Source: a virus. Taken from it: 64,000 bases of DNA. The translations under genes and the position numbers were made by a program. A model generated the notes under the pieces. It saw nothing but the letters and a program-made list of their open reading frames with translations. It was not told the origin of the DNA and made no database searches. Of the stretch, positions 8,311 to 58,898 are shown in pieces (the stretch's first letter is position 1; every line of letters begins with the position of its first letter). The stretch spans positions 57,433 through 121,432 of IMG/VR virus record IMGVR_UViG_3300033984_000416; one strand, given 5' to 3'.

Positions 8311-8620
8311 ATAATGCTTTATGATTATTTACTTGTGTTATATATCTTGACACAGCACTATCGAAAGGAAAAGGAATCCTAATCAAAGTCATATCTGGTA
8401 TATTAAATTCTAAACCACCAAATTGTGGGTTGGCTAACATAATCAACCAACCACTGTATGCATTATTATAATACATGTTACTCATTTTGTCAAGTCTACT
8501 TAACCCTTGTTTATAAACCATTGATTTATCCGAACCAGATTCTGGGATAGTTATCCCAGGTAAAGGTTTCATATCTGCATTTACTCTAAATGCGTTATAT
8601 CTGTCGTAATATTCTGCCAT
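8300..8620 (-). CDS. LysM/TailX-like baseplate wedge protein (T4 gp53-like)
   Basis: SRLDKMSNMYYNNAYSGWLIMLANP...FNIPDMTLIRIPFP pattern; lies between tube initiator and hub genes. Confidence 0.7.
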   Translation of the reverse strand: MAEYYDRYNAFRVNADMKPLPGITIPESGSDKSMVYKQGLSRLDKMSNMYYNNAYSGWLIMLANPQFGGLEFNIPDMTLIRIPFPFDSAVSRYITQVNNHKALYGE

Positions 8621-8622
8621 AA

Positions 8623-11600
8623 TTAATTTTGATATACTAGTGCTTTTGTTGCTGTTATTGTTTTTTTACCACCACCTACAAGGTCTTTTATTTCAAGTCT
8701 TAACCTAAAACCGATATCAATAGTATAATTTCTTTCGCTAGCTGGTTTTGCTTCTTGTATTGCTACATTACAAGCAATTAAACTCTGTTGTTGTGCAATT
8801 AAGTTATTAAATTTAGCTCTACCACCAAGTCGAGTGTCCTCATCAACCCAAACATAAACGTTTGCATGGTTAAACCATTGTGTTGTTATCTTTTTACCTT
8901 CTTTAGTTTCAACAACACCATCTTTTGTTAATAAAATACTACCGATAAAGTCACCGTTGGTGTCTGAGCTTGCAATCATATCTTTTGGACATGCTTTTGC
9001 ACAGTTGTCATAACTAGCACCGTTTTTAGGTATCATAGCTTGAACTAAATACATATCTATTTGGAAATCAGTTGTTGGTTTTATAACAACACCAGCACTA
9101 TCTGTTTTAAAATTTAAAAAAGAATAAACAAATTGACTTGATTTACCAACGTGAAAGTATTCATCAACAGCTGTAATATTATCTATTGTAAATGGACCGC
9201 CAGTTGGTGAAACTGCCGCTACTTGTGCTACTGGTGCTCCAGCGGCAATCTCAGCTGTTTTTACTTGGTTTGTTTCTGGTGTGTTATCTACAATGTCTGT
9301 CGCTGTAATAACTGTTTCTGGATTTGACATATCTAAATTACCGTTATTCAAATAATAACCAGTGTTGCTCAATGGTGCCATATTTGACATCGGTAAATCT
9401 TTACCATCTTTACCTTTAACGTTATAAGTTGGTCTTTCTTTTGTAACATAATCAGCTCTAGGGTCATATACTTGTGAATTTGCAAAATAATTGAACGACA
9501 AAGCATTTTGTAATTTATTGATTGGACTCATAAGCGTTGAACCACCTATAAATTTGAATGAAATATTAACGTTGGCAATCATTGGTTGAACACCTATACC
9601 TTCTGGGTTAAGGTCCCATACCAATGGTTCGTAATCAATAGCTACGCTGTCCATAACAATTTTTGTGTTATAGAAATCACCTATTCTTAAGATACAAATT
9701 GGTGGTCTACCAAATGCTAAGTTGTTAGCACCTTGAGCTTCAGAAGTTGGTCCTTGTCTTGTACATTGTAATAAAAATGTAAGTCTAGAGTTTAAACCTT
9801 CTGGTGTTGTCGAGTGAAACGCTGGGTGAAAATATCTAATTTTCTCTCTAAACGAATCAAACACTAGTGGGTCATAATCTGCTAGTTTTTCAAAGTATAA
9901 ACATTCATCATAAAACCTATTCGTAATCTTTGTGTTCACATTTTGTGGTATTTTTTTAATAACTGGGTCTGGTTGTGCAACATCTGCCGCAGCTAATTCA
10001 GCGTCAAAAACAAAATGTATCACCGCTTTTCTATCTTGTTTACATGCAACACTATCAGTATCAGCACCATGGTTAGGTATACAACCAGTATTAGTTAAAG
10101 CTATTCCTGGATTAGCTTTAAATCTTTTTTTAGTGTCACCACCAATGTGTGGCCCTAATTTTACATCTCTAAGGTCTTCCATAATAGCTTTTGCTCTTGC
10201 GTCAGCTAATTTTTGATTGTATTTAGCACTACCTTGTGGGCTGGCATATCCTGTTACTTCAACTCTACAATGTGGACATTTTTGTGATAAATGGTCGATA
10301 AGAGCTGGAATATATAACGGGTCATAATAACCATAAAATTCTTGAACACCGATTCTAGAAGGTACGGTATATGGTCCTTTATAATTTAAACCAAAGTTAT
10401 ATCTATCTGGCCATTTTTCAGTATTTCCAGGTGTAAAACTACTAGGATAATTACCTAACCCGTATCCGATACCAGCTGGGTTTACATTGTAATCAATTGT
10501 ATTTGTTGTTGACGAACCACTTAAACCACTTTCATAAGACATTGGTAGAATTGCATTATCGTTTGGAAAATATACAACCATATCATCTGGAACAAATTCT
10601 TCTGGAACAACTTTTTGTTGTGGTATCACTAAATCTCTAGTTGCTATTTTACTTTTCTCACTTACAGTTAATTTTTCACCCCATTTACTATTAGGGTCAA
10701 TACAACCAGCCCAAAATGAATTAATATAATGGTCATCTGGTCCAGTTTCACCTCTAAACGCATTTATATAACTAGGGTGGTCAACAACGATTTGAAATGA
10801 TAAGTTACCACTTCTTTCAGTATTATTATAAGTGTAAACAGGTTCACCTCTACCAATAAAATTGTTAGATTCCCAGTTTACAGAACTATTTTCACTAAAT
10901 TTGATATTGTATGGTGGAAACCACATGATTCTACCTTTTTTACCGCTACTTAAATCTCCAGGACCTCTCTCGCATTCTGGCAAATTTTCTTTGGCATCGT
11001 GCCATGCAAGGTTTTCAATTGAAAACATAAATTTTTTAGGGTCTGTAGCTTTATCAGTTGTGTATGGAGCTATTTTAACAAAACCATTATCATCTAACAC
11101 TGAATTTTCAGTATTAAACCTATATGGTACATTAGGGCTATCCCATAATCCACGAGCTCTAACCAAATTGTATACCGTATCGTATCTATCTAAAGTCGTC
11201 CAACTTCTACAATATACATCACCAGCTGTTTTACCAGTTGCTGTACCCATGTATCTACCTGTAGTTTGGTCAAACATAGAACCTTGCATTACAGCATTAC
11301 CCTTTGAAAACCCACCACCATTGGCTGTTGATATTTGACTTGAATGTTTACCCATATCACCTTTTTGTGAAACGATGTTTTTCATCGCTTTACTATTGAA
11401 TAATTTTTGAGTTTTAACCAAAAGTGATTTTTTATCACCTAATAATTCATCATATTGAACTGTTTTATTTACCGATTCACCATTACTAGTTGTCCATGTA
11501 AATCCAACATCACTTATTTTTCTATCATCATAACCAACATTACCTTTTGGTCCCGTATATGTTTCTTCTGGGCTTTTAAACCCAGCATTAGAAACCATTT

Positions 11601-12915
11601 CTTCTCTGTTGTAGCTAATATTTGCAATAACACCATCATCAGAACCAAATAGATTTATTATTTGACCACCTTTATTGAAAGCATAAAGGATTCCATCGGT
11701 TATTTGAACTTCACCCTTGTTGTTAGCATATGCTGGTGCGTATCCGCTTCTAAACGATGATTTAGAGGGACTATCTATACCAGTTGGACTAACACCTAGC
11801 TGATTTGCTCTAACGTTCGTTAAAAGGGCTTGTATTTGACCCTTACCTGTATGTAGTATCATATGGTTAGCTCTATCAACATTTGATATGACACCACTTT
11901 CTGATTGAAAAATCGAACCATCATCTTCTAGATAACTTCTAGGTAACGTAAATCCTAATATTTTACCAGCAGTATCTAATATTCTACCACCAGTTGTTTT
12001 TGGGATTGTAATTTTGTAGCTTGGTCTAAAACCAGCAAGTGTACCGTTCTTAACAAGACTAAGAATGTTATTTTGAACATTTAAAGCACCCAATAATTCT
12101 TGTTGAACGTTGAATGCAGCATTATTTGCTAGTGCCAATGCTAATTGTTGTCCACCTATAGTTCCTAACTTGGTATCGTTGATAAGACCTGTAGCACCTA
12201 ATATTCTACCAGCCAATGAAGACCTAATATCAAAATTTGTTACAACACCACCTTTAGCCAAACCTAAACCTTGACCATTCAATACACTACCAATAACGTT
12301 AGCAGCTTGAATCGCACCACTACCACCTAGATTTAAACCACCATAGGTATCTAAATAACCACTTATTTGTTGAGATGTATCTACGGGTTGTAAACCTATA
12401 AATGCCGACATATCTATTTGTTTGCTAGCATCTAAATAAAGATTTTTAATCGTGTTTTTCTTTCTAAATTGACCATCGTTTGTTTTACCAATCAACCCAT
12501 AATTATTTACATCGTCATTAGCACCTGTTGGATACGAAGTAATACCTTGCGGCCATTGTGCGTTAGGGAAATTAGAATTTACAGTTGGTATTACAAAATC
12601 TATTTGTGTTAATGCATTAGCATTTGAACCTACATTTTGAAATGTATTTGGAAGTACGTTTAAATTTTTAAATAAAATCCCTTCAACTTGTAAGGGTAAC
12701 CCAATTGGAACAGTAACATTACCAGTACCAACCATAGTATCTAATACTGGTTGACCAATTCTAGGACTACCATTCAATGAAGTTGATAGTTGAGGATAAA
12801 CTGGTAATAAATTTTTATTAAGTAAAAAATCTCTAATACCATACGTTACAGCAGTACTGTTGATAGTATTCCTTGTTGTTGGCGAAGGTGTTGAAGTGTT
12901 ATAAAAGATTGGCAT
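8623..12915 (-). CDS. Baseplate / tail tube initiator-like protein (gp48/gp54-like, 1430 aa) with an internal OmpA-like domain
   Basis: IMWFPPYNIKFSENSSVNWESNNFIGRGEPVYTYNNTERSGNLSF and RPPICILRIGDFYNTKIV...QPMIANVNISFKFIGG segments; OmpA-like VYFPND...VTGYASPQGSAKYNQKLADARAK...DRKAVI. Confidence 0.65.
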   Translation of the reverse strand: MPIFYNTSTPSPTTRNTINSTAVTYGIRDFLLNKNLLPVYPQLSTSLNGSPRIGQPVLDTMVGTGNVTVPIGLPLQVEGILFKNLNVLPNTFQNVGSNANALTQIDFVIPTVNSNFPNAQWPQGITSYPTGANDDVNNYGLIGKTNDGQFRKKNTIKNLYLDASKQIDMSAFIGLQPVDTSQQISGYLDTYGGLNLGGSGAIQAANVIGSVLNGQGLGLAKGGVVTNFDIRSSLAGRILGATGLINDTKLGTIGGQQLALALANNAAFNVQQELLGALNVQNNILSLVKNGTLAGFRPSYKITIPKTTGGRILDTAGKILGFTLPRSYLEDDGSIFQSESGVISNVDRANHMILHTGKGQIQALLTNVRANQLGVSPTGIDSPSKSSFRSGYAPAYANNKGEVQITDGILYAFNKGGQIINLFGSDDGVIANISYNREEMVSNAGFKSPEETYTGPKGNVGYDDRKISDVGFTWTTSNGESVNKTVQYDELLGDKKSLLVKTQKLFNSKAMKNIVSQKGDMGKHSSQISTANGGGFSKGNAVMQGSMFDQTTGRYMGTATGKTAGDVYCRSWTTLDRYDTVYNLVRARGLWDSPNVPYRFNTENSVLDDNGFVKIAPYTTDKATDPKKFMFSIENLAWHDAKENLPECERGPGDLSSGKKGRIMWFPPYNIKFSENSSVNWESNNFIGRGEPVYTYNNTERSGNLSFQIVVDHPSYINAFRGETGPDDHYINSFWAGCIDPNSKWGEKLTVSEKSKIATRDLVIPQQKVVPEEFVPDDMVVYFPNDNAILPMSYESGLSGSSTTNTIDYNVNPAGIGYGLGNYPSSFTPGNTEKWPDRYNFGLNYKGPYTVPSRIGVQEFYGYYDPLYIPALIDHLSQKCPHCRVEVTGYASPQGSAKYNQKLADARAKAIMEDLRDVKLGPHIGGDTKKRFKANPGIALTNTGCIPNHGADTDSVACKQDRKAVIHFVFDAELAAADVAQPDPVIKKIPQNVNTKITNRFYDECLYFEKLADYDPLVFDSFREKIRYFHPAFHSTTPEGLNSRLTFLLQCTRQGPTSEAQGANNLAFGRPPICILRIGDFYNTKIVMDSVAIDYEPLVWDLNPEGIGVQPMIANVNISFKFIGGSTLMSPINKLQNALSFNYFANSQVYDPRADYVTKERPTYNVKGKDGKDLPMSNMAPLSNTGYYLNNGNLDMSNPETVITATDIVDNTPETNQVKTAEIAAGAPVAQVAAVSPTGGPFTIDNITAVDEYFHVGKSSQFVYSFLNFKTDSAGVVIKPTTDFQIDMYLVQAMIPKNGASYDNCAKACPKDMIASSDTNGDFIGSILLTKDGVVETKEGKKITTQWFNHANVYVWVDEDTRLGGRAKFNNLIAQQQSLIACNVAIQEAKPASERNYTIDIGFRLRLEIKDLVGGGKKTITATKALVYQN

Positions 12916-47800: not shown

Positions 47801-48277
47801 TTAAATTAAAATTCCTGTTCCTGTTATTGTTGAGTTTCCAGATAAAATAACACCGCCAGCGACATTGATTAAACCATCATTAACGATATTGCTATCTACT
47901 AACAATAAATATCCACCAATAAAGATTTGTGCGTATTTATTGAAAATTAAATTTCCAATTGTTATACTATCATTATCTGAAAGCAAATATAATTGTGAAT
48001 TTCTTAATACATAGTCACCAGAAATAACAACTGTCTCTGTACTACCAACTGTTTTACTAGTACCTTCCAACCAATGTGTAACATTAGATACAGGAAATGA
48101 AATATTATGACCATTGTATTTTTTTAGTATAACTTGGTCATTTTGGGTTTCACCAGTATATATGACTTCACCTTTTAAACTAACGAAATTCTCATCAAGT
48201 TCACCTTGACTCAATACACTCCCTTTGTTTACGTCCCCATATGGGCTATTGGTTGTTCTAAGAATTAAATTATTCAT
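47801..48277 (-). CDS. Short fibre-associated protein (158 aa)
   Basis: N-terminal LRTT...KGSVLSQGELDENFVSL motif seen at starts of phage fibres. Confidence 0.6.
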   Translation of the reverse strand: MNNLILRTTNSPYGDVNKGSVLSQGELDENFVSLKGEVIYTGETQNDQVILKKYNGHNISFPVSNVTHWLEGTSKTVGSTETVVISGDYVLRNSQLYLLSDNDSITIGNLIFNKYAQIFIGGYLLLVDSNIVNDGLINVAGGVILSGNSTITGTGILI

Positions 48278-48295
48278 ATTTTAAATTATTTTATT

Positions 48296-50155
48296 TTAAT
48301 TATGTGTTACATCGCAACCTCTTGCGATTAAAATTGCTTTAGCTGCTAAACCTGTAGCTGATGGTACAGCTGAAGTACCTTTTATTGTTACTATTCTATT
48401 ATTAAATGATGTTGTACCATTTGTCCCATCTAACGCTGCTAATCTAACCAATAACCCATCTACAGATGTTTGACCTAATACGGCACTTGTTATAATTACA
48501 TTTCCAGATGTAAAACCTACTTGTTTTAATGATGGACTTAACCTAAATGTTGTTAATGTTGGTGTTCCAGAAGTAAATGAAATTAAACTACCAGATGTAC
48601 TACTTACCCCTATTCTTTCGATAGCGTCTAGGTAAATCTGTTCAATAACAACCATACTACTTGGCGAAACACTACCACCAATAGTTTTAAGTGATGGAAA
48701 CGTCATAATATAAATACCATCCATTTTACTAAAACTCAAATTTCCACCTACAGAAACTAAAGATGGTACACTTAAAGAGGTCAAACCATTCATGGTATTA
48801 GCAGCAAAATTACCACCAACAGTTGTTAAAGATGACATGGACATAGATTGTAATGCTACCATAGCTGTTGGGGCAAAATCACCACCAACACTTAATAAAG
48901 ATGGTAAATTAAGTAATGTTATCCCATCCATAGCACTAGGGTTAAAATTCCCACCTACTAATTTTAAAGCTGGAAAACTCATACCAGTTAAAGCATTCAT
49001 ACCACTAGGACCAAAATTACCGCCAACACTTATTAAACTAGGTAATGACATACTAACCAGACCACTCATTGTATTTGGTATAAAACCACCACCAATAGTT
49101 TCTAAACTAGCAAAAGTCATAGCCGCCAAAGCACTCATTGTGTTAGCCGCAAATGAATTTGTTATAGTTTTCAAAGAAGGAACTACCATAGCAGTTAACC
49201 CAGCCATAAAACTTGGTGAAAATTCACCAGCAGTTGTTAACGCTGGTATATTCATAGCAGTTACAGCCGCTAAATTATTAGGACTGTAACTACCAGTTAC
49301 AGTTTTTAAATTTGGAAAAATCATTGTTACATAACCAGCTAAATTATTAGGACTAAAGTTGCCCTCAACATTTACAAGGATAGGTACATTTATAGTCGTT
49401 AATAAAATTAATGTACTTGGTGAAAATGAACCCAATACTGTAATTAAAGCTGGAAAATTAACACCTGTTAAACCAGTTAAACTATTTGGAGTAAATGAAC
49501 CCATAATACCTTGAATATCAGTAAAGGTTATTGTTTGTAAATTTGGGTTATCTGATGGTAAAACTATTGTTGATACCCATTTTCCAGAATAATCTGGTAT
49601 ATAACCACTTGCCAAAGCTGGTGGTGGTGCTGTTATAACACCAAATGGTGGGGTTGTTAACGTTCCAGTATAAACATAATTAATAATCCCTAATTCACCA
49701 CTTAATGAACTACCTAAAGCATACCAATTAGCACCATTATAACAATCTAACCAATGGTAATCATTATTATAAATCACCAAACCCTCAACAGGATTAACTA
49801 CCGATGTTCTTTGTAAAGTAGTTAATCTTGGTGGTAAAAAACCTTGCGTAGTAGAGTCAATTTGTAATTTAGCTGAAGTTACAGGTATTATTGTTCCAAT
49901 ACCTAAACTAATAGAATTATCATACATCTGACTATCACCAATTATATCAACATCTATAAATTTTGATATAAAATTAGTACTACCAGAAAAAGTTACTACA
50001 CCACCAAATTTAATCCAAACGCCATTAGTTTTATGGTAGTATTGATTTCCAGTACTTTGGTCATTCCAAAATTGTCCAATAAAATAACCATTAGCTATGT
50101 TATTTAGATTAGTAGGTGGGTGATTTTCGTAATAGGTTATTGTTTTCTTTATCAT
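48296..50155 (-). CDS. Receptor-L-domain / LRR-like solenoid protein (619 aa)
   Basis: ~25-aa repeats xFPxLxxVGGxFxPxxMxxLxx; QGFLPPRLTTLQRTSVVNPVEGLVIYN motif typical of Bacteroidota surface proteins. Confidence 0.7.
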   Translation of the reverse strand: MIKKTITYYENHPPTNLNNIANGYFIGQFWNDQSTGNQYYHKTNGVWIKFGGVVTFSGSTNFISKFIDVDIIGDSQMYDNSISLGIGTIIPVTSAKLQIDSTTQGFLPPRLTTLQRTSVVNPVEGLVIYNNDYHWLDCYNGANWYALGSSLSGELGIINYVYTGTLTTPPFGVITAPPPALASGYIPDYSGKWVSTIVLPSDNPNLQTITFTDIQGIMGSFTPNSLTGLTGVNFPALITVLGSFSPSTLILLTTINVPILVNVEGNFSPNNLAGYVTMIFPNLKTVTGSYSPNNLAAVTAMNIPALTTAGEFSPSFMAGLTAMVVPSLKTITNSFAANTMSALAAMTFASLETIGGGFIPNTMSGLVSMSLPSLISVGGNFGPSGMNALTGMSFPALKLVGGNFNPSAMDGITLLNLPSLLSVGGDFAPTAMVALQSMSMSSLTTVGGNFAANTMNGLTSLSVPSLVSVGGNLSFSKMDGIYIMTFPSLKTIGGSVSPSSMVVIEQIYLDAIERIGVSSTSGSLISFTSGTPTLTTFRLSPSLKQVGFTSGNVIITSAVLGQTSVDGLLVRLAALDGTNGTTSFNNRIVTIKGTSAVPSATGLAAKAILIARGCDVTHN

Positions 50156-50156
50156 T

Positions 50157-53100
50157 TTATAGTTTTACTATGGTTAAGATACGATTATTCAATAAAACTC
50201 GACCAACATCTGTTCTCCAATTAACACTAATTGCTTGCGAACCATTAACAGTCGCAATACCAGCTAAATTAATATCTTGTGTGTAGTTATTATACTTTCT
50301 AATTCTATTAGAATTTATAATCATAGCGGTACTATAATATAAACTAAACACATTGGTAATACCAAATTGTTGTGAATCATCATAAGGATTTCCATTAAAA
50401 ACTGTACCAGCAAATACTGTTACGTTACCAAAATTAGTACCCATATCACCAGTTATAACAGCCAATGCTGTATTGGCAACATTTCCAGCCGCTGTAAAAC
50501 ATAGGAAAGTCTGTAAAATACCCATATTCATAACACTTTGAGCCGTTGGTCTAGATTGAATTCCAGAACCAAAAGCTAATGCACCGCTAGTCGAAAATAA
50601 ACGACCAGTAAATACACAATTCGCACCTAATGCCGCAGCAGCACCATAAGCGATATAGTTACCAGAAATTACGTTATCAGCCCCAATTCCAACAGCTCCA
50701 ATTGCCATGAAAAATACATTTGCAGCGTTAGCTCCATTAGTCAACTGTATTGTTGTAGCCGCTGCTGTATTTATAGCTCCAGTCACTCTGAAAATAAATA
50801 AAGAATTTGGGTTACCACCACCATCTAAGGTTAATGTCCCAGCAACAGACATCGCTCCAGCAACAGTGTATACCCCAGCAGTTAGAACTTCACCAGAACC
50901 AAACGATAACCCATGACTTCCAGTAGCTGGCGTATTTAACAAAGCTAAATATAAATTTTGTAAATCCAAGGTAGCTATCGTACAAACATTACCTGGTACT
51001 ATATCGTAATTAGCATTAAAATCTATTTTATATGTACCAGCTGGCGGTGTTATAGACATACCACTTATTATAACATCAGTAGATGAAGTTGTTGAAACTT
51101 CATAAGATTCTGTAATTGATGACCAAAAATTTGTTGTTGTTGTTGCACTAATTGTTACTACATTACCACTTAAATCAACACCAATTGGTTGACCTATTGA
51201 TGTTGGGCTTACACTAGTAAGATTAGCAAGTCTTAATCCACTATCATTAATTGTTTCTCCAGAAATATGTAAACGTTTTGTTGGGTTAACAACACCACCA
51301 ATACCAACATTACCTTTAAGAATTGTTTTAGTTATACTATTATTACCTAAAGTAACTGAATTTGAACCATTTCCTATTGCTCTATAACCAATGACAATCT
51401 GATTAGCTTGATTGTCTTTCTCAACTCTACACTCAGTACCAATCAAAGTAGAGTTTATGATGTTTGTAGCATAACTTGTAGTTCCTGTTCCAACCGCAAT
51501 ATAAGCACCACTAAAATAACCAATTGCAATATTTGAACTACCTGTTATATTATTAAACAATGAAAATGCTCCAACTCCAGTATTATATAAAGGTGTTGTT
51601 TGATTTGCAAGTGCTTGAAATCCATCTCCAGTATTATAACTACCAGTTGTGTTATAGTATAAAGCATTAAATCCATTTCCTGTATTTCTTACACCAGTTG
51701 TGTTATAGTATAACGCATCACCACCAATTGCAATATTTCTTTTACCTATTGTATTAGAATATAACGTTTGTGAACCAATTGCTAAATTTTCCATTCCTGT
51801 TGTATTATTGAATAATGAACTTGCTCCAATTGCAACATTTAATGTACCTGTTGTGTTGTTAGATAACACACTCTTACCAAAAACTATATTTGAACTATAA
51901 TTACCTTGACCAAGACCAATTTGTGTTCCATTTAATAATAAATCAAATGCACCTAAATCAACTTGACTTGTTGCACCCACATAAGGAACAAAATTACCAG
52001 TTGTATAACCAGTAACTGTAAATGTATTTCCAGAATTATTTTTAAAGGTAGTTGTCCCAGCAGTATATGTACCACCAGTAACAAAAGTATCGTTAGCATT
52101 TCCTTGAATCCCTTGTGGACCGATTGGTCCAATTGGACCTACAATTCCTTGAATACCTTGAATACCGATAGGTCCAGTTAAACCACTAACCCCTTGTATT
52201 CCTTGTGGACCGATTGGTCCAGTTAAACCACTAATTCCCTGTATCCCTTGCAGACCGATAGGACCGATTGGTCCAGTTAAACCACTAATTCCCTGTATTC
52301 CTTGTAGACCGATAGGTCCAATATCACCAGTTAAACCACTAATTCCCTGTATTCCTTGTATTCCTTGAATACCGATAGGTCCAGTTAAACCACTAATTCC
52401 TTGGGGACCAATTGGCCCAATTGGGCCAGTTAAACCACTAATTCCCTGTATACCTTGAGCTCCTTTAGCAGCTAGTAAAGCCCAGTGCATTGTATCGATT
52501 ATTGGTGATGTATTTCCAGATGTTGTTATATCTAGGATACAAAAATATGATGCACCACTATAACTTACTGAATCATTAATAATATATTGATAGTTATTAT
52601 CCCATAATGATAACCAATTTAACCCAGAAGGTGCTACTTCACCTTGTATTCCTTGTGGACCAATAGGTCCAATACCACCAGTTAAACCACTAACCCCTTG
52701 TATTCCTTGTGGACCGATTGGTCCAGTTAAACCACTAACCCCTTGAAAACCTTGGATTCCTTGCAGACCGATAGGACCAATCGGCCCAGTTAAACCACTA
52801 ATTCCCTGTATTCCTTGTAGACCGATAGGTCCAATATCACCAGTTAAACCACTAATTCCTTGAATCCCTTGTGGACCAATATCACCAGTTAAACCACTAA
52901 TTCCTTGTAACCCTTGAATCCCTAGTAACCCTTGAAACCCCTGGATTCCCTGTGGTCCTATAGGGCCAACAATTCCTTGTATTCCTTGAATTCCTTGAAT
53001 CCCTTGAATTCCTTGCGTACCACCAACATATGGTTTAATAAATTCTGTTAATCCACTTATACTTATTTTTTTAGTTTCACCGCTATTTACAATAGGTATA

Positions 53101-53159
53101 ACATCCTCTAAGGTTGGGTTGTTATTAACGTTAAAAGCACTTATTTTTTTATTAGCCAT
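50157..53159 (-). CDS. Collagen-like fibre (1000 aa): Gly-X-Y repeats, CBM-like insert, NxAIG repeats, C-terminal DUF3494 ice-binding-like domain
   Basis: (GIQ/GPI/GLT)n; WDNNYQYIINDSVSYSGASYFC...HWALLA; DLQNLY...GVYT...TLTLDGGGNPNSLFIF...TTIQLTNGANAANVFF...FTGRLFSTSGAL. Confidence 0.8.
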   Translation of the reverse strand: MANKKISAFNVNNNPTLEDVIPIVNSGETKKISISGLTEFIKPYVGGTQGIQGIQGIQGIQGIVGPIGPQGIQGFQGLLGIQGLQGISGLTGDIGPQGIQGISGLTGDIGPIGLQGIQGISGLTGPIGPIGLQGIQGFQGVSGLTGPIGPQGIQGVSGLTGGIGPIGPQGIQGEVAPSGLNWLSLWDNNYQYIINDSVSYSGASYFCILDITTSGNTSPIIDTMHWALLAAKGAQGIQGISGLTGPIGPIGPQGISGLTGPIGIQGIQGIQGISGLTGDIGPIGLQGIQGISGLTGPIGPIGLQGIQGISGLTGPIGPQGIQGVSGLTGPIGIQGIQGIVGPIGPIGPQGIQGNANDTFVTGGTYTAGTTTFKNNSGNTFTVTGYTTGNFVPYVGATSQVDLGAFDLLLNGTQIGLGQGNYSSNIVFGKSVLSNNTTGTLNVAIGASSLFNNTTGMENLAIGSQTLYSNTIGKRNIAIGGDALYYNTTGVRNTGNGFNALYYNTTGSYNTGDGFQALANQTTPLYNTGVGAFSLFNNITGSSNIAIGYFSGAYIAVGTGTTSYATNIINSTLIGTECRVEKDNQANQIVIGYRAIGNGSNSVTLGNNSITKTILKGNVGIGGVVNPTKRLHISGETINDSGLRLANLTSVSPTSIGQPIGVDLSGNVVTISATTTTNFWSSITESYEVSTTSSTDVIISGMSITPPAGTYKIDFNANYDIVPGNVCTIATLDLQNLYLALLNTPATGSHGLSFGSGEVLTAGVYTVAGAMSVAGTLTLDGGGNPNSLFIFRVTGAINTAAATTIQLTNGANAANVFFMAIGAVGIGADNVISGNYIAYGAAAALGANCVFTGRLFSTSGALAFGSGIQSRPTAQSVMNMGILQTFLCFTAAGNVANTALAVITGDMGTNFGNVTVFAGTVFNGNPYDDSQQFGITNVFSLYYSTAMIINSNRIRKYNNYTQDINLAGIATVNGSQAISVNWRTDVGRVLLNNRILTIVKL
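52273..52859. repeat. Exact 74-bp direct repeat pair (52273-52346 and 52786-52859) within collagen-coding repeats
   Basis: ccagttaaaccactaattccctgtattccttgtagaccgataggtccaatatcaccagttaaaccactaattcc occurs twice, 513 bp apart. Confidence 0.9.
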
Positions 53160-55067: not shown

Positions 55068-58000
55068 TTAAAAGTTTTCTAAGTTAGTACGCTTCCAACC
55101 TGTACTAGTTCTAACATATAAATAGTCGTCATCTCTTGTAAGATTACCTTCAGAACCATTTATATCACTAGTCGATGTTGGTGTATATGTTGGGATTGTT
55201 AAAGCGTTTGGTTTAAAATCATTGTTTGTAACCCAATTACCTTCAGCATCAGTCACAATTTCAGCTGATAATCCCATACCTTTGGCGTGGAGTACACTAA
55301 TACCACCACCAATGGCGGTTGTAGGAGTTCCACTATAATTTAATTCTATATTGTTATCCTCAGCTAGAATTGTTTGAGTTTCTAAATAGGTTGTATTATT
55401 GCTAGTTGTTCCAGTTGCCAATTCTTTGACAGCTTCAACCAACAACGCAGTTACGTCACTATAATGAACCCCCATGTATTCTTCTGGGATTGTTTTGTTT
55501 ATAAATGTTAATTCTGGTACTATTTCGTTGACTTCTTGAGCGATAAACCCAATTCTAAAATCATCACCACCAGTTACTCTATCTTTTAATTGGTAAGTAA
55601 CACCTCTAAGATTTTTCACCTTATCCAAAGAATTTGTTAGAGTTGATATATTTTCTTTAAGACGTAAATCTGAAGATGTTAAAACGACATGTCCAGTACC
55701 ATCAACAGCAATACTAGTACCAGGACCAGCACCAACAGTTTTAATGTTTAAATTATCAACATACGTTGTGTTTGCAACCAATCCAGTTATGTTAGCACCT
55801 AATACAACAGTATTTGTTCCACCAGCTATTGAATTGGCCCCATGAACAAATGCAGTATCACCACTTGCTGTTGACTGGATACCACCAGAATGCGAACCAT
55901 AATTACCGCTAGCGGTAGTTTGATATCCTTCGGCATGTGAATTACTATTGCTAGCTATTGAATAATACCCTTCAGCATGTGAATAGGGACCGCTCGCTAG
56001 TGTATGTATTCCTTCAGCATGACCACCTTCACCACTTGCTGTTGTACTGTTACCTTCAGCATGTGAATAAAGCCCACTAGCAAGTGTTAGAATACCTTCA
56101 GCGTGTGCTGCTGCTGTTGTTGCTGACGTTGCTCCACCTTCAGCGTGTGAATAAATACCACTAGCCCTAGTATTCTGACCTTCAGCGTGTGAATTATCAC
56201 CAATAGCTTGTGAAAATGCACCTTCAGAGTGAGCCGCAAAACCAATAGCTTTTGATTCACGACCTTCAGCATGACTTGCATCACCACTAGCTGTACCACC
56301 AGTAATAACGTAAGCTGAAGAACCACCCTCAGCATGACTTCCATTTCCACTTGCTAGTGATTTATAACCTTCAGCGTGTGAATTATCACCGCTAGCGATT
56401 GTCGACCCACCTTCAGCGTGTGAACCAAAACCACCAGCAAGTGTTTGGTAACCTTCAGAAAAAGCATAATCTGTCGTTGCGGATGTAGCCCCACCAACAG
56501 CAAAACTCGTCCCACCAATGGCTCTAGTATTTTGACCATGTGCAAATGAATAATTACCAATAGCATGACCAGCATTTCCACCAGCATGTGATGATGTACC
56601 ACTAGCTATTGATTGATTACCTTGAGCATGTGAATAATTACCACTAGCTATAGTATAATAACCTTCAGCGTGACTAACTTGGGCAGATGCTATGGTATAC
56701 GAACCTTCAGCGTGAGCAGCTTGTGCTGTTGCTGTTACCCTAAAACCTTCAGCGTGAGCTGCATCAGTACTAGCAATTGTTTGGTAACCTTCAGCGTGTG
56801 AGTAAGTACCACTGGCTAGTGTTCCATAACCTTCGGAATGTGCATAACTTGTTGTTGCTGAAGTCTCGTAACCTTCAGCGTGAGAGGCTTGACCAGCTGA
56901 CCTTGTAGCCCAACCTTCAGCGTGAGCACCTTGACCATAAGCTTTTGTATTACCACCTTCAGCATGTGAAAAATCTGTTGTCGCACTAGTTTGGTAACCT
57001 TCAGCATGACTCCCTAAATTACCACTTGCTATCGTACTAACACCTTCAGCATGACTCGCAATACCGCTAGCAGTACCACCAAATAAACCTAAACTATAAT
57101 AACCACCCTCGGCATGTGAACCTTCACCAATTGCTAATGTCAAAGCACCTTCAGCATGTGAAAAATTACCGATAGCTTGTGTTTCTTGACCTTCAGCATG
57201 ACTACCAGTACCACTAGCTAGTGTCAATTTACCTTCTGCGTGACTTGCAATTGTTGTTGCTGATGTTTGTTGACCTTCAGCGTGACTACCAGTATTAGAA
57301 GCAACAGTATTTTGACCTTCAGCATGACTCCCATCACCACTGGCTAGTGTTCCCATACCTTCTGCGTGAGCATATAGTGATGTTGCCGATGTTGACATAC
57401 CTTCAGCGTGACTCCCACCACCAATAGCTCTAGTCAACCAACCTTCAGCATGACTCCCATAATTACCACTTGCTATCGTACTAACACCTTCAGCGTGACT
57501 CGCAACACCACTAGCAGTACCACCAGAAAGATTCAATAACCAGTTACCACCTTCAGCGTGCGAACCAGCACCAATAGCTTGTGAGTAAGCACCTTCAGCA
57601 TGTGAATATTGACCACTTGCTAGTGTAAAACCACCTTCAGCATGTGCACCTTGATTAGCTGCTTTAGTATATTCTCCTTCAGTATGAGATGATTGAGACA
57701 TTGCAGACGTACTAACACCTTCAGCGTGACTCCACGCAGCATTAGCGATTGTTTGACTACCTTCAGCATGACTTGAAGTACCCAAAGCTTTTGTTTGAAA
57801 CCCTTCAGCGTGTGAATACCAACCACTTGCTAGTGTATTTTGATTTTCAGCATGACTGGCTATACCACTAGCTATTGAACTAGCACCTTCAGCATGAGCA
57901 CCATTAATTCCACTAGCAAGCGTACCAACACCTTCAGAGTGTGAATAAATTGTTGTTGCTGATGTTTGGTAACCTTCGGCATGACTTGCTGTTCCACCAG

Positions 58001-58898
58001 CAAGTGTACCCCAACCTTCAGAGTGACTATAATCACCATTTGCTGTGGTTCCACTACCTTCAGCGTGACTCGCACCACCGAGTGTAATTGTACTCTGACC
58101 TTCAGCATGTGATGCAGCACCACTAGCAGTTGTCTGTAAACCTTCAGCGTGTGTATAAGGACCACTAGCAATATTGACATCACCTTCAGCCACTGAAAAG
58201 AAACCACTAGCAATACTTGTACTACCATTTAGTATGGCAGAATTAGGGTTTGTACTTATATCCCATACAGTTGAAGCACTAGTTGCTCCAGAAAGTGGTA
58301 ACCACCCAGCTTTACCTTCAGCATCCAAACATGTTAATACATGCCCAACACCTGGATTTTTAGTTATTATAAGTTCTTGTGTTCTAGTGATTCCAGATAC
58401 ATCAGCCCATATTGTTCTTCCTGTGAAATCTAACGTTCCAGCAGAATAAAAATATAACTCATCAGTCTCAACTGTACCACTATAGTTACCACCACCCAAA
58501 TCAGTCATGGCTAGTACGTAAATATCGAAAGATACACCACTATAATCTAATACAACGGTATTCCCATCAATAACAGTTAAAGTGTTAGCTGTAAATATTG
58601 GGTCAACAATTTCTTGGGTAAAACCAGAAGTTGAAGGTGTTATTGCGGATAATGAAGACCACCCTAACTGCATATTTGGGTCGAACCAATTATATATTGT
58701 AGTTGTGTTATTACCAGAGAAAGTACTAACAATATTAGCATCATATCCAGTATCACCAGAAGTTGTTAAATCTGGGCCTGTTGGTAAAACGTTAAATGGA
58801 ACACCAAATGATGTACCACCAGACAAAACAGTTATAGTTTCTATGTGTTGTTTTACTTGTCTGTTGCTTGAAAAGTCTAATTTTGTTCTAAATGCCAT
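55068..58898 (-). CDS. Tail fibre (1276 aa) with ~50 SHAEG 14-aa repeats and a peptidase S74 intramolecular chaperone domain
   Basis: SHAEGxxTxASGxx repeats (ccttcagc recurring in DNA); SSDLRLKENI...LRGVTY...IGFIAQEVNEIVPE...LLVEAVKEL. Confidence 0.85.
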   Translation of the reverse strand: MAFRTKLDFSSNRQVKQHIETITVLSGGTSFGVPFNVLPTGPDLTTSGDTGYDANIVSTFSGNNTTTIYNWFDPNMQLGWSSLSAITPSTSGFTQEIVDPIFTANTLTVIDGNTVVLDYSGVSFDIYVLAMTDLGGGNYSGTVETDELYFYSAGTLDFTGRTIWADVSGITRTQELIITKNPGVGHVLTCLDAEGKAGWLPLSGATSASTVWDISTNPNSAILNGSTSIASGFFSVAEGDVNIASGPYTHAEGLQTTASGAASHAEGQSTITLGGASHAEGSGTTANGDYSHSEGWGTLAGGTASHAEGYQTSATTIYSHSEGVGTLASGINGAHAEGASSIASGIASHAENQNTLASGWYSHAEGFQTKALGTSSHAEGSQTIANAAWSHAEGVSTSAMSQSSHTEGEYTKAANQGAHAEGGFTLASGQYSHAEGAYSQAIGAGSHAEGGNWLLNLSGGTASGVASHAEGVSTIASGNYGSHAEGWLTRAIGGGSHAEGMSTSATSLYAHAEGMGTLASGDGSHAEGQNTVASNTGSHAEGQQTSATTIASHAEGKLTLASGTGSHAEGQETQAIGNFSHAEGALTLAIGEGSHAEGGYYSLGLFGGTASGIASHAEGVSTIASGNLGSHAEGYQTSATTDFSHAEGGNTKAYGQGAHAEGWATRSAGQASHAEGYETSATTSYAHSEGYGTLASGTYSHAEGYQTIASTDAAHAEGFRVTATAQAAHAEGSYTIASAQVSHAEGYYTIASGNYSHAQGNQSIASGTSSHAGGNAGHAIGNYSFAHGQNTRAIGGTSFAVGGATSATTDYAFSEGYQTLAGGFGSHAEGGSTIASGDNSHAEGYKSLASGNGSHAEGGSSAYVITGGTASGDASHAEGRESKAIGFAAHSEGAFSQAIGDNSHAEGQNTRASGIYSHAEGGATSATTAAAHAEGILTLASGLYSHAEGNSTTASGEGGHAEGIHTLASGPYSHAEGYYSIASNSNSHAEGYQTTASGNYGSHSGGIQSTASGDTAFVHGANSIAGGTNTVVLGANITGLVANTTYVDNLNIKTVGAGPGTSIAVDGTGHVVLTSSDLRLKENISTLTNSLDKVKNLRGVTYQLKDRVTGGDDFRIGFIAQEVNEIVPELTFINKTIPEEYMGVHYSDVTALLVEAVKELATGTTSNNTTYLETQTILAEDNNIELNYSGTPTTAIGGGISVLHAKGMGLSAEIVTDAEGNWVTNNDFKPNALTIPTYTPTSTSDINGSEGNLTRDDDYLYVRTSTGWKRTNLENF

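What the first reader, a model, noticed from the sequence alone, without database searches (positions are those of the whole stretch)
50157..51130. Collagen fibre tipped with a circularly permuted DUF3494 ice-binding-like domain nested in a BclA/C1q-like domain
Seen: the DUF3494 core (DLQNLY...GVYT..AGAMSVAGTLTLDGGGNPNSLFIFRV.GA..TAAATTIQLTNGANAANVFF..IGAVGIG...GRLFSTSGAL; ~50565-50985) is followed by what is normally the domain's N-terminal segment (MGILQTFLCFTAAGNVANTALAVITGDMGTNFGNVTVF; ~50405-50530). The whole is inserted into a jelly-roll-like sequence (DVIISGMSITPPAGTYKIDFNANY ... ISVNWRTDVGRVLLNNRILTIVKL). Known: DUF3494 proteins bind ice, and some act as ice adhesins in cold-adapted microbes, including Flavobacteria. 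Inference: virions may display trimeric ice-binding tips to attach to ice or survive freezing alongside their hosts.
Basis: partly seen in the sequence, partly recalled or inferred. Interest (0 to 1): 0.75.

Follow-up and report, generated by a model that had tools for sequence, protein, structure and literature searches.

The report
Rearranged ice-binding fold on phage fibre
A large uncultured lake phage ends one collagen-like tail fibre in a probably three-fold knob from which a complete but re-ordered copy of the "ice-binding protein" fold projects; secreted proteins of glacier and polar bacteria carry the same tip, so the virus may stick to ice, but nobody has tested this.

Summary
The ORF at window 50157-53159 (- strand, 1000 aa) is a collagen-like tail fibre of a large uncultured myovirus from lake water. 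Its last ~324 residues fold confidently (AF2 pLDDT 92) into a TNF/C1q-like jelly roll (PLTL lectin Z 15.2; BclA Z 11.5). A whole DUF3494/IBP-1 beta-solenoid (IBPv 5UYT Z 21.3, rmsd 1.3 A) is spliced between the roll's 4th and 5th strands.

The insert is circularly permuted: helix, then coils, then the coil that normally comes first. This is the same as a one-domain slice cut from a tandem ice-binding protein.

The unit is a recurrent, swappable C-terminal tip. 104 of 203 retrieved proteins have exactly this order. Carriers include otherwise unrelated phage fibres and signal-peptide proteins of Bacteroidota, mostly from glaciers, polar seas and sea ice. The alanine ladder needed for antifreeze activity in IBPv is kept.

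The ligand is untested. My estimates are ice ~0.4, host surface glycan ~0.35 and other ~0.15-0.2. No paper in the searched library describes this architecture. This scan had already met the same module on other phage DNA. I class it as a new variant of known kinds, of moderate-to-high interest.

The parts
50157..53159 (-). Whole ORF (1000 aa plus stop): collagen-like tail fibre
   Evidence: ORF list. Pfam Collagen E 4e-35. PHROG tail-fibre families, e.g. phrog_5073 at E 5.9e-84. It lies in a same-strand run of fibre-like genes in a myovirus window that also holds a tail sheath, a tape measure and a DNA polymerase.
53022..53159 (-). N-terminal fibre-attachment region (aa 1-46), no signal peptide
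   Evidence: By inspection there is no hydrophobic leader. The motif resembles the N-termini of other module-bearing phage fibres (P0003, P0011).
52635..53021 (-). Collagen run 1 (aa 47-175, 43 G-X-Y triplets)
   Evidence: Regex count; Pfam PF01391. Logan contigs break and loop here, so the exact repeat number is the least certain part of the assembly.
52464..52634 (-). Non-collagen island between the two collagen runs (aa 176-232), weakly CBM_5_12-like
   Evidence: Pfam CBM_5_12 E 0.026, 15 bits against a cut-off of 26.2, so below threshold.
52095..52463 (-). Collagen run 2 (aa 233-355, 41 triplets)
51132..52094 (-). Beta-rich repeat shaft (aa 356-676)
   Evidence: PHROG tail-fibre, tail-spike and virion-protein families cover aa 203-610. 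The relative P0003 has YadA-head-like repeats in its equivalent region. Not modelled here.
50991..51131 (-). Jelly roll, N-terminal half (aa 677-723; four strands)
   Evidence: AF2 strands 16-58 of P0002. TNF/C1q-like chains align from model residue ~10-15. The jrN HMM is found only in module proteins. Contigs in run X4 have loose ends at 51131 and 51154, which is this boundary.
50538..50990 (-). DUF3494 long alpha-helix plus beta-solenoid coils (aa 724-874)
   Evidence: PF11999. VIA scores: 5UYT Z 21.3, 7BWX Z 19.2 (model 59-210 to chain 53-203), 3WP9 Z 18.1, 6BG8 Z 17.5. It holds the Ala ladder A132/A159/A178/A197 (P0002 numbering), mapped and PMC5673226.
50379..50537 (-). Relocated 'initial coil' of DUF3494 (aa 875-927), now after the last coil
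   Evidence: It aligns to 5UYT residues 5-44 and to the first coil of domain B. The coilX HMM hits the N-terminal coil of 78 tandem IBPs. The alignment to 5UYT_B runs on to model residue 257.
50160..50378 (-). Jelly roll, C-terminal half (aa 928-1000; five strands), ending at the protein's C-terminus
   Evidence: AF2 strands 273-336. TNF/C1q alignments run to model residue 337. In all 109 module proteins at most 11 residues follow it.

Best explanation
The gene encodes a collagen-like tail fibre, presumably trimeric, of a large uncultured freshwater myovirus. Its host is probably a member of Bacteroidota.

The last ~324 residues are a self-contained, horizontally mobile tip. It is a TNF/C1q-like jelly-roll knob with a complete DUF3494 (IBP-1) beta-solenoid spliced between the 4th and 5th strands. 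The insert runs helix, then coils, then the former first coil. This is a circular permutant, equal to a one-domain window cut from a tandem ice-binding protein such as IBPv. In the canonical fold the first coil stacks on the last coil, so the permuted chain simply winds on. It enters and leaves at the same end of the solenoid, which suits insertion into a loop.

I read the unit as the fibre's distal adhesive head, presenting (inferred) three flat Ala/Gly-rich solenoid faces. My favoured ligand is ice, that is, the ice-water interface. Binding ice would hold virions on or in ice, where ice-associated Bacteroidota carrying the same tip live, and might also blunt recrystallisation damage.

What is shown: the fold, the permutation, the nesting, the recurrence of the module and its position at the fibre's C-terminal end. 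What is inferred: the trimer, the exposure of the flat face and the ligand.

My odds: architecture ~0.9; adhesive tip ~0.8; ice as the selected ligand ~0.4.
For: Fold and order:
- PF11999 scores 83.9 bits. 5UYT gives E 2.5e-45 with one alignment running across the domain A/B boundary.
- AF2 pLDDT 92. VIA Z 21.3/19.2/18.1/17.5 to IBPs and Z 15.2-10 to TNF/C1q-like folds spanning the insert.
- Segment-HMM census: 104 proteins with jrN-core-coilX-jrC against 78 with coilX-core-coilX-core.
- Raymond 2024 (PMC11645318) states that in the canonical fold the final coil ends next to the initial coil. The IBPv paper lists the ice-binding-site row as A41-A212-A193-L174-A147, so the first coil sits beside the last (PMC5673226).

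Ice-related evidence:
- 36-38% identity to IBPv, which has measured thermal hysteresis (PMC5673226).
- By the alignment, the residues equivalent to IBPv's row 1, whose A-to-L mutants in domain B lose activity, are N230-A197-A178-A159-A132. Row 2 is A232-A199-A180-G161-N134. The face is flat and small-residue, without the aromatic platforms usual in sugar sites.
- A159, A178 and A197 are at least 90% conserved over 39 diverse module sequences.
- Genome hits that carry the whole module are mostly glacier Flavobacterium (LB3P45, LB3P122, ZT3R17, ZT3R25, LB3P6, F. xueshanense, F. urumqiense and others). The rest include Antarctic or Arctic Maribacter ACAM166 and Polaribacter filamentus, F. gillisiae, F. 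weaverense, and sea-ice, Fram Strait and Lake Bonney MAGs (PMC11865497, PMC12117939, PMC12799291).
- In F. fructosi the gene sits beside a second paralogue and T9SS surface proteins, not in a prophage.
- The phage has other fibre candidates that could bind the host: a 1276-aa fibre with an S74 chaperone, plus 615-, 619- and 831-aa neighbours.
Against: - No ice assay exists for any member of this nested module.
- The source is 'lake water metagenome' with no temperature or ice metadata.
- The Flavobacterium carriers belong to one 'Cryospheric Lineage' (PMC12799291), so they are not independent cases. The genome scan used only two peptide patterns. A few carriers are from wastewater or river MAGs.
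- DUF3494 proteins also occur in hundreds of bacteria from non-icy habitats, where they may bind other surfaces (PMC11645318).
- Row-1 alanines sit at 'G-A' corners and could be conserved for folding alone.
- A flat Ala/Gly face could equally be a protein-protein interface buried in the trimer. I could not inspect coordinates or model the trimer (complex prediction closed).
- The distal tips of phage fibres normally bind host receptors, and tip swapping among unrelated phages is typical of receptor-binding modules.
Confidence: 0.4

Rival explanations
1. Host receptor-binding tip. The knob and its solenoid insert bind a surface polysaccharide, EPS or protein of the host (Bacteroidota). The ice-binding fold has been co-opted as a generic flat adhesive scaffold, and ice plays no part.
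For: - The module sits at the extreme C-terminus of a tail fibre, where receptor-binding domains usually are. PHROG tail-fibre families match the protein.
- The module is exchanged among phages that share no other gene within 16 kb, and contigs break at its boundary. This is the usual behaviour of receptor-binding tips.
- The best jelly-roll match is a sugar-binding TNF-like lectin, PLTL (Z 15.2). Cyanophage fibre CBD, PRD1 P5 and a Bdellovibrio fibre tip also match.
- DUF3494 proteins are widespread outside icy habitats and may bind other surfaces (PMC11645318).
- The source is lake water, not ice.
Against: - The same module is carried by secreted proteins of the likely host phylum, and these carriers are concentrated in cryospheric taxa. 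A self-glycan binder does not explain that.
- The putative binding face is Ala/Gly-rich without aromatic residues and is nearly invariant among 21 phage-type sequences, rather than variable as in many receptor-binding sites.
- The phage has several other candidate receptor-binding fibres.
Confidence: 0.35
2. Other adhesive or structural role. The tip binds some other unchanging surface, such as algal or particle polysaccharide or biofilm matrix, in the manner of capsid Ig-like domains that bind mucus. Or the insert mainly stabilises or decorates the knob.
For: - Generic beta-solenoid adhesins (HxuA, FHA, HMW1, tapirins, SRRP) also superpose at Z 10-12.
- The flat face is conserved across phage and bacterial versions, which fits an invariant ligand of any kind.
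- Earlier scan notes report DUF3494 inserts in other phage tail proteins, including a soil phage (unchecked).
Against: No specific ligand is suggested by any result. The cold-habitat bias of the bacterial carriers points to ice rather than to organic matter.
Confidence: 0.15
3. Auxiliary metabolic gene. A phage-encoded soluble ice-binding protein is made to cryoprotect the infected host. This is how PF11999 genes on Arctic viral contigs have been read (PMC11515562).
For: PF11999 genes on viral contigs have been reported and read this way (PMC11515562).
Against: - The domain is the C-terminal end of a 1000-aa structural fibre with 84 collagen triplets and a phage-fibre N-terminus.
- There is no signal peptide (by inspection).
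- The gene lies among fibre genes of a myovirus.
Confidence: 0.03

Closest known systems
IBPv, the two-domain DUF3494 antifreeze protein of Flavobacteriaceae isolate 3519-10 (PDB 5UYT; PMC5673226)
   Same: It is the closest solved relative: E 2.5e-45, 36-38% identity, Z 21.3, rmsd 1.3 A over 154 residues. It has the same helix-plus-triangular-solenoid fold and the same 'G-A' corner ladder on the ice-binding face.
   Different: IBPv is a secreted soluble protein with two canonical domains in tandem (first coil, helix, coils, twice). The phage insert is one unit that begins at the helix and ends with the 'next' first coil. It is embedded in another domain at the end of a fibre. Its ice activity is untested.
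Single-domain DUF3494/IBP-1 proteins (AnpIBP 7BWX, ColAFP 3WP9, SfIBP_1 6BG8, FfIBP 4NU2)
   Same: The fold is shared from the helix to the C-terminus (Z 17.5-19.2; model 59-211). Pfam family PF11999 matches.
   Different: Their N-terminal coil has no sequential counterpart in front of the helix here. Its homologue lies after the last coil, which makes this a circular permutation.
TNF/C1q-like trimeric knobs: PLTL and BC2L-C-Nt lectins, BclA, ExsFA, F-BclA, C1q heads
   Same: A jelly roll of about 110 residues superposes: 9IB6 Z 15.2, 7R1M Z 12.1, 9H38 Z 11.9, 1WCK Z 11.5, C1q about 10-11.6. As in BclA and C1q, it ends a collagen-containing protein.
   Different: There is no Pfam C1q or TNF sequence match. 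A ~210-residue foreign domain interrupts the roll between strands 4 and 5. About 320 residues of beta-rich shaft separate the roll from the collagen. The trimer is not verified.
Phage fibre and spike tips with TNF/C1q-like heads (cyanophage A-1(L) short fibre CBD 8KE9, PRD1 P5 1YQ5, 'C1q domain containing protein' of uncultured Caudovirales in BFVD)
   Same: The same knob fold sits at the distal end of a viral fibre.
   Different: None of these carries an inserted DUF3494 domain. BFVD holds no protein with the combined architecture.
PF11999 'ice-binding-like' genes on Arctic viral contigs read as AMGs (Rahlff et al. 2024, PMC11515562)
   Same: A viral contig carries a PF11999 domain linked to Flavobacteriales.
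   Different: Those genes were read as host-cryoprotection genes, with no architecture given. Here the domain is part of a virion fibre. Whether those genes are the same module could not be checked.
Non-canonical DUF3494 proteins (Raymond 2024, PMC11645318)
   Same: Both are variations on the DUF3494 theme found in cold-habitat bacteria. Some have an N-terminal beta-sandwich.
   Different: Those vary the number of coils before the helix and keep the canonical order. They are not permuted, not nested and not viral.

Membership tests
DUF3494 / IBP-1 (Pfam PF11999 Ice_binding) | Sequence match above the curated threshold | tested here: met
   83.9 bits against a cut-off of 28.7, E 1.6e-23. 25 solved IBPs matched, the best at E 2.5e-45.
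DUF3494 / IBP-1 (Pfam PF11999 Ice_binding) | Right-handed triangular beta-solenoid with a long alpha-helix alongside | tested here: met
   AF2 pLDDT 92 with helix 62-78 followed by coils. VIA Z 21.3-17.5 and rmsd 1.2-1.6 A to four solved IBPs.
DUF3494 / IBP-1 (Pfam PF11999 Ice_binding) | Canonical chain order: initial coil, then helix, then reverse stack of coils (PMC11645318) | tested here: not met
   The homologue of the initial coil (P0002 212-264) follows the last coil. The protein therefore has the fold and the family sequence but is a circular permutant, not a canonical member.
DUF3494 / IBP-1 (Pfam PF11999 Ice_binding) | Flat ice-binding face with a ladder of small residues (IBPv rows; PMC5673226) | tested here: inconclusive
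   The equivalents are N230-A197-A178-A159-A132 and A232-A199-A180-G161-N134, from the alignment, and they are conserved. Their exposure in the assembled tip could not be checked.
DUF3494 / IBP-1 (Pfam PF11999 Ice_binding) | Ice binding (thermal hysteresis, recrystallisation inhibition, ice shaping) | not testable with these tools
   Needs recombinant protein and ice assays.
TNF/C1q-like jelly-roll knobs (BclA C-terminal domain, C1q, TNF-like lectins) | Jelly-roll fold of about 110-130 residues | tested here: met
   9IB6 Z 15.2 (113 of 134 residues, rmsd 2.0), 1WCK Z 11.5 and many C1q/TNF chains at Z about 10-12, all spanning model ~12-337. Foldseek probability 0.99-1.00 over ~80 columns.
TNF/C1q-like jelly-roll knobs (BclA C-terminal domain, C1q, TNF-like lectins) | Sequence membership in a C1q or TNF Pfam family | tested here: not met
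   No such Pfam hit at E up to 1. The resemblance is in fold only.
TNF/C1q-like jelly-roll knobs (BclA C-terminal domain, C1q, TNF-like lectins) | Homotrimer | not testable with these tools
A trimer is inferred from 84 collagen triplets in the same chain.
Collagen-like phage tail fibres | Long G-X-Y runs plus tail-fibre family matches, in a tail gene cluster | tested here: met
   43 + 41 triplets. Pfam Collagen E 4e-35. phrog_5073, phrog_6320, phrog_8745 and others. Neighbours include an S74-chaperone fibre. A tail sheath and a tape measure are in the window.
Phage auxiliary (AMG-type) secreted ice-binding protein | Stand-alone soluble IBP with an export signal | tested here: not met
   The domain is fused to a 676-residue fibre. 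No hydrophobic leader is visible by inspection of the N-terminus; no signal-peptide predictor was available.

The most novel reading that the evidence does not exclude
Virions of this phage, and of the many unrelated phages carrying the same tip, bind ice directly through about 18 or more permuted IBP domains on their fibres. This would be a 'phage adherence to ice' strategy. It would concentrate viruses at the ice-water interface and in brine veins, beside ice-adhering Bacteroidota that display the same module, and it would protect particles during freeze-thaw. It would be the first ice-adhesive virus, and an ice-binding domain delivered as a nested circular permutant.
Probability: 0.35. Interest if true: 0.85.

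Novelty: new variant of a known kind. Interest (0 to 1): 0.62.

Why it matters
Ice-binding proteins are known as secreted or cell-anchored tools of cold-adapted organisms. A structural virion component built from one would extend ice adhesion to viruses. It would give a concrete, cheap test: express about 330 residues and run ice-affinity and recrystallisation assays.

It also cautions against reading PF11999 hits on viral contigs as host-cryoprotection 'AMGs'.

For protein evolution it is a clean natural example of how a tandem repeat yields a circular permutant whose two ends meet, which allows insertion into a loop of another domain. The resulting two-domain unit then spreads between bacteria and phages.

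A trimeric, collagen-stalked display of three IBP domains may also interest those engineering multivalent antifreeze proteins.

Tried and rejected
- Deposited phage genomes (INPHARED): blastn of the gene found only collagen-repeat matches to Bacillus phages. tblastn of the tip and of a canonical Flavobacterium tandem IBP found nothing. No isolated phage with a BLAST-detectable relative is on record there.
- Genome scan with the 39-sequence alignment failed because no conserved stretch was found. I redid it with a closer bacterial alignment, which biases the hits towards that clade.
- Search for an uninserted ancestor of the jelly roll, using residues 265-337 alone, returned only five members of the same module family out of 20 candidates. 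This is a word-limited search and no evidence of absence.
- Origin of the nested cores: FastTree (309 cores) and a quick IQ-TREE (95 cores) scatter the nested cores among tandem cores, with 10 and 13 state changes. An AU test does not reject a single clade (the constrained tree is 10.46 lnL units better; p-AU 0.614). A single origin is allowed but not proven.
- Per-site variability in 27 close and 81 distant module sequences showed no obvious hypervariable patch that would point to a receptor site.
- Runs X3 and X5-X8 hold only small shares of the stretch's words. I did not use them for habitat.
- BFVD (viral predicted structures) has no protein with the combined architecture. It has only a canonical DUF3494 protein in a giant virus and many C1q-like phage tips.
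- The Pfam HMM stretches its N-terminal positions (15-55) over the jelly-roll strands. I rejected that part of the alignment in favour of the 5UYT and segment-HMM evidence.
- Literature searches for DUF3494 with phage, with circular permutation, and for ice-binding with tail fiber found no description of this architecture.
Full report
**The gene and its setting**

The finding lies in one ORF, 50157-53159 on the - strand, 1000 aa (P0001). The window is part of a 121-kb IMG/VR virus record that CheckV rates as 36% complete. It also encodes a tail sheath, a tape-measure protein, a DNA polymerase and a helicase, so this is a large contractile-tailed phage. G+C is about 33%.

The ORF sits in a same-strand run of fibre-like genes. 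These include a 1276-aa fibre ending in a Peptidase_S74 chaperone.

Sequencing-run look-up places the DNA in a 'lake water metagenome', which may be its source. A second, independent lake-water run from 2024 also holds it. In that run an 867-nt contig covering 50323-51189 is identical to the window.

**Anatomy of the protein**

- Residues 1-46 are a phage-fibre N-terminus with no leader.
- Residues 47-175 and 233-355 are 43 and 41 G-X-Y triplets (Pfam Collagen E 4e-35). A small island between them is weakly CBM_5_12-like (E 0.026, below threshold).
- Residues 356-676 are a beta-rich shaft covered by PHROG tail-fibre, spike and virion families.
- Residues 677-1000 are the module in question. 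I studied it as P0002, which is aa 664-1000.

**Is the DUF3494 domain real?**

Yes. PF11999 scores 83.9 bits against a gathering score of 28.7. Twenty-five solved ice-binding proteins match by sequence, led by the two-domain IBPv (5UYT) at E 2.5e-45.

AlphaFold2 with a 39-sequence family alignment gives pLDDT 92 and pTM 0.76. VIA-align scores are:
- 5UYT: Z 21.3 (rmsd 1.3 A, 154 residues)
- 7BWX: Z 19.2
- 3WP9: Z 18.1
- 6BG8: Z 17.5

Foldseek agrees.

**Is it circularly permuted?**

Yes, on three independent lines of evidence.

1. The HMMER alignment to 5UYT is collinear from P0002 65 to 263 against chain residues 59-265. That runs from domain A's helix and coils straight into the first coil of domain B. 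P0002 215-254 also aligns to the N-terminal first coil of the chain, residues 5-44.
2. Single-domain IBPs superpose only from their helix to their C-terminus (model 59-211 against, for example, 7BWX 53-203). Their own N-terminal coil is left unmatched. The tandem IBPv superposes on to model residue 257.
104 proteins read jrN-core-coilX-jrC. 78 read coilX-core-coilX-core, which is the canonical tandem form. In these, coilX also precedes the first core directly after the signal peptide (e.g. P0037 26-76). jrN and jrC never occur in tandem IBPs.

Raymond (PMC11645318) describes the canonical fold as an initial coil, then a helix, then a reverse stack whose final coil ends next to the initial coil. 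The IBPv paper's ice-binding-site row A41-A212-A193-L174-A147 shows the same adjacency (PMC5673226). The permuted chain therefore just continues winding. It starts and ends at the same end of the solenoid, which is what a domain inserted into a loop needs (inference).

One relative, P0093, has two such units in the insert: core-coilX-core-coilX-jrC. This fits derivation from a tandem array.

**Is it nested in a BclA/C1q-like domain?**

Yes at the level of fold. About 105-117 residues drawn from both flanks (model ~12-58 and 273-337) superpose on:
- TNF-like lectin PLTL (9IB6): Z 15.2, rmsd 2.0
- ExsFA: Z 12.1
- F-BclA: Z 11.9
- BclA (1WCK): Z 11.5
- many C1q and TNF heads: Z about 10-11.6
- viral and predatory-bacterial fibre tips: 8KE9 Z 10.9, 8OKW Z 11.5, PRD1 P5 Z 9.4

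There is no Pfam C1q or TNF sequence match. The insertion point lies between the fourth strand (45-58) and the fifth (273-279).

**Distribution of the module**

A profile-free HMMER scan of 1.84 billion representatives found 5529 relatives at E up to 1e-3. About 60 of the best 150 match the whole module as a single stretch ending at the protein's C-terminus.

In all 109 module proteins collected, at most 11 residues follow the module. The N-terminal parts are very diverse. They include:
- phage-fibre N-termini;
- collagen runs;
- a signal peptide followed by a conserved ~60-residue motif, which precomputed tables label PF26696 and the Atlas's Pfam table names PTL_trimer.

Four other IMG/VR contigs carry close copies (58-76% identity) on fibres of 386-1126 aa. 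Otherwise they share no ORF with this window within 16 kb.

In run X4 a 6.3-kb contig is 94% identical over 48260-51294. Other contigs in that run end at 51131 and 51154, which is the module boundary.

The module is therefore a swappable tip.

**Bacterial carriers**

The genome scan found the complete module mainly in psychrophiles:
- Glacier Flavobacterium: F. fructosi LB3P45, F. xueshanense, F. urumqiense, F. yafengii, F. restrictum, F. ranwuense, F. omnivorum and strains LB3P122, ZT3R17, ZT3R25, LB3P6.
- Polar isolates: F. weaverense, F. gillisiae, Maribacter ACAM166, Polaribacter filamentus.
- MAGs from sea ice, Fram Strait, the Amundsen Sea and Lake Bonney.
- A few wastewater and river MAGs.

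Glacier origin and psychrophily are documented for several of these strains (PMC11865497, PMC12117939, PMC12799291). The last paper places the Flavobacterium species in one 'Cryospheric Lineage', so within that genus the cases are not independent.

In F. fructosi the gene lies next to a second paralogue and to T9SS- and GEVED-type surface proteins, not in a prophage.

**Origin of the nested cores**

Trees of the solenoid core do not resolve the nested cores as one clade (10 and 13 state changes). However, an AU test does not reject a single clade: the constrained tree is 10.46 lnL units better, p-AU 0.614. The flanking jelly-roll halves are homologous throughout, so one insertion event followed by spread is the simplest reading. 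It is not proven.

**Function**

What is shown is a confidently folded, conserved, mobile two-domain tip at the C-terminal end of a collagen-like fibre. An adhesive role is the natural inference. The ligand is open.

For ice:
- The insert is 36-38% identical to IBPv, a protein with measured antifreeze activity.
- Using the alignment and the paper's numbering (chain index = paper number minus 21, checked on C226, C244 and A253), IBPv's row-1 residues map to N230-A197-A178-A159-A132. A-to-L mutants of these residues in domain B lose activity. Row 2 maps to A232-A199-A180-G161-N134. This face is very flat, made of small residues and free of aromatics.
- Three of the four alanines are at least 90% conserved across the family. 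The face is nearly invariant among 21 phage-type sequences.
- The bacterial carriers are strongly cold-biased.
- The phage has other fibres that could handle host recognition.

Against ice:
- No member has been assayed.
- The habitat metadata say only 'lake water'.
- The alanines sit at structural G-A corners.
- A flat Ala/Gly face could be buried in the trimer.
- DUF3494 proteins exist in non-icy bacteria (PMC11645318).
- Fibre tips usually bind host receptors.
- The best knob match is a lectin.

I put ice at about 0.4, a host glycan or EPS receptor at about 0.35, another surface or a structural role at about 0.15, and a soluble 'AMG' at about 0.03. The last is contradicted by the fusion to a fibre.

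**Prior knowledge**

The searched library holds no paper that links DUF3494 to a phage fibre or to a circular permutation.

Rahlff et al. (PMC11515562) reported three PF11999 genes on Arctic viral contigs and read them as cryoprotective AMGs.

INPHARED phages have no BLAST-detectable relative. BFVD has none with this architecture. The ESM Atlas lists a 57-member all-virus cluster that is merely named 'Ice-binding-like domain-containing protein'.

This scan has already reported the same module on other phage DNA, in at least five other genomes. My results agree with those notes. They add the segment census, the ice-site mapping, the AU test, the population-level contig evidence and the bacterial locus context.

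The trimer and the sample metadata therefore remain untested.

Noticed in passing
window 48296-50155 (- strand): The 619-aa gene directly downstream starts at 50155, overlapping the fibre gene's stop codon (50157-50159). It carries a 57-residue motif that is 46% identical (E 6e-12) to the N-terminal 'PTL_trimer'-type motif of the bacterial module proteins (P0176). It also has weak BspA-type LRR similarity. The two halves of the bacterial architecture therefore sit on adjacent phage genes.
   Followed up: partly
window 55068-58898 (- strand): A 1276-aa tail fibre with 12 stretches of phrog_25468 and a C-terminal Peptidase_S74 intramolecular chaperone (E 7.8e-16). The 56001-58000 bin has G+C 0.446 against about 0.33 elsewhere.
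   Followed up: no
window 52464-52634 (- strand): A ~57-residue non-collagen island interrupts the collagen helix. It is weakly CBM_5_12-like (E 0.026, below the cut-off). The collagen-bearing relative P0079 also has a weak CBM_5_12 hit.
   Followed up: no
P0093 (696 aa, metagenomic relative): A variant of the module with two permuted solenoid units in the insert (core-coilX-core-coilX-jrC). It may be an intermediate between tandem IBPs and the single nested unit.
   Followed up: partly
window 48260-51294; boundary at 51131-51154: Run X4 (2023, coded organism A) holds a 6.3-kb contig 94% identical over the 619-aa gene plus the tip module. Other contigs in that run stop at the module's N-terminal boundary, which suggests recombination at that point.
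   Followed up: partly
window 52186-53023: Logan contigs break, loop back and have many loose ends within the collagen-repeat DNA. The number of G-X-Y triplets in the assembly is therefore uncertain.
   Followed up: no
L003 (Flavobacterium fructosi LB3P45) 5956-9574: Two module-bearing paralogues (534 and 531 aa by the ORF list) lie in tandem beside a T9SS-sorted protein and a 1600-aa GEVED/Ig_7 surface protein. Several other genomes also hold two copies.
   Followed up: partly
window 1966-12915 (- strand): Two very large ORFs (2114 and 1430 aa) upstream of the tape-measure gene have no PHROG match at 1e-5.
   Followed up: no
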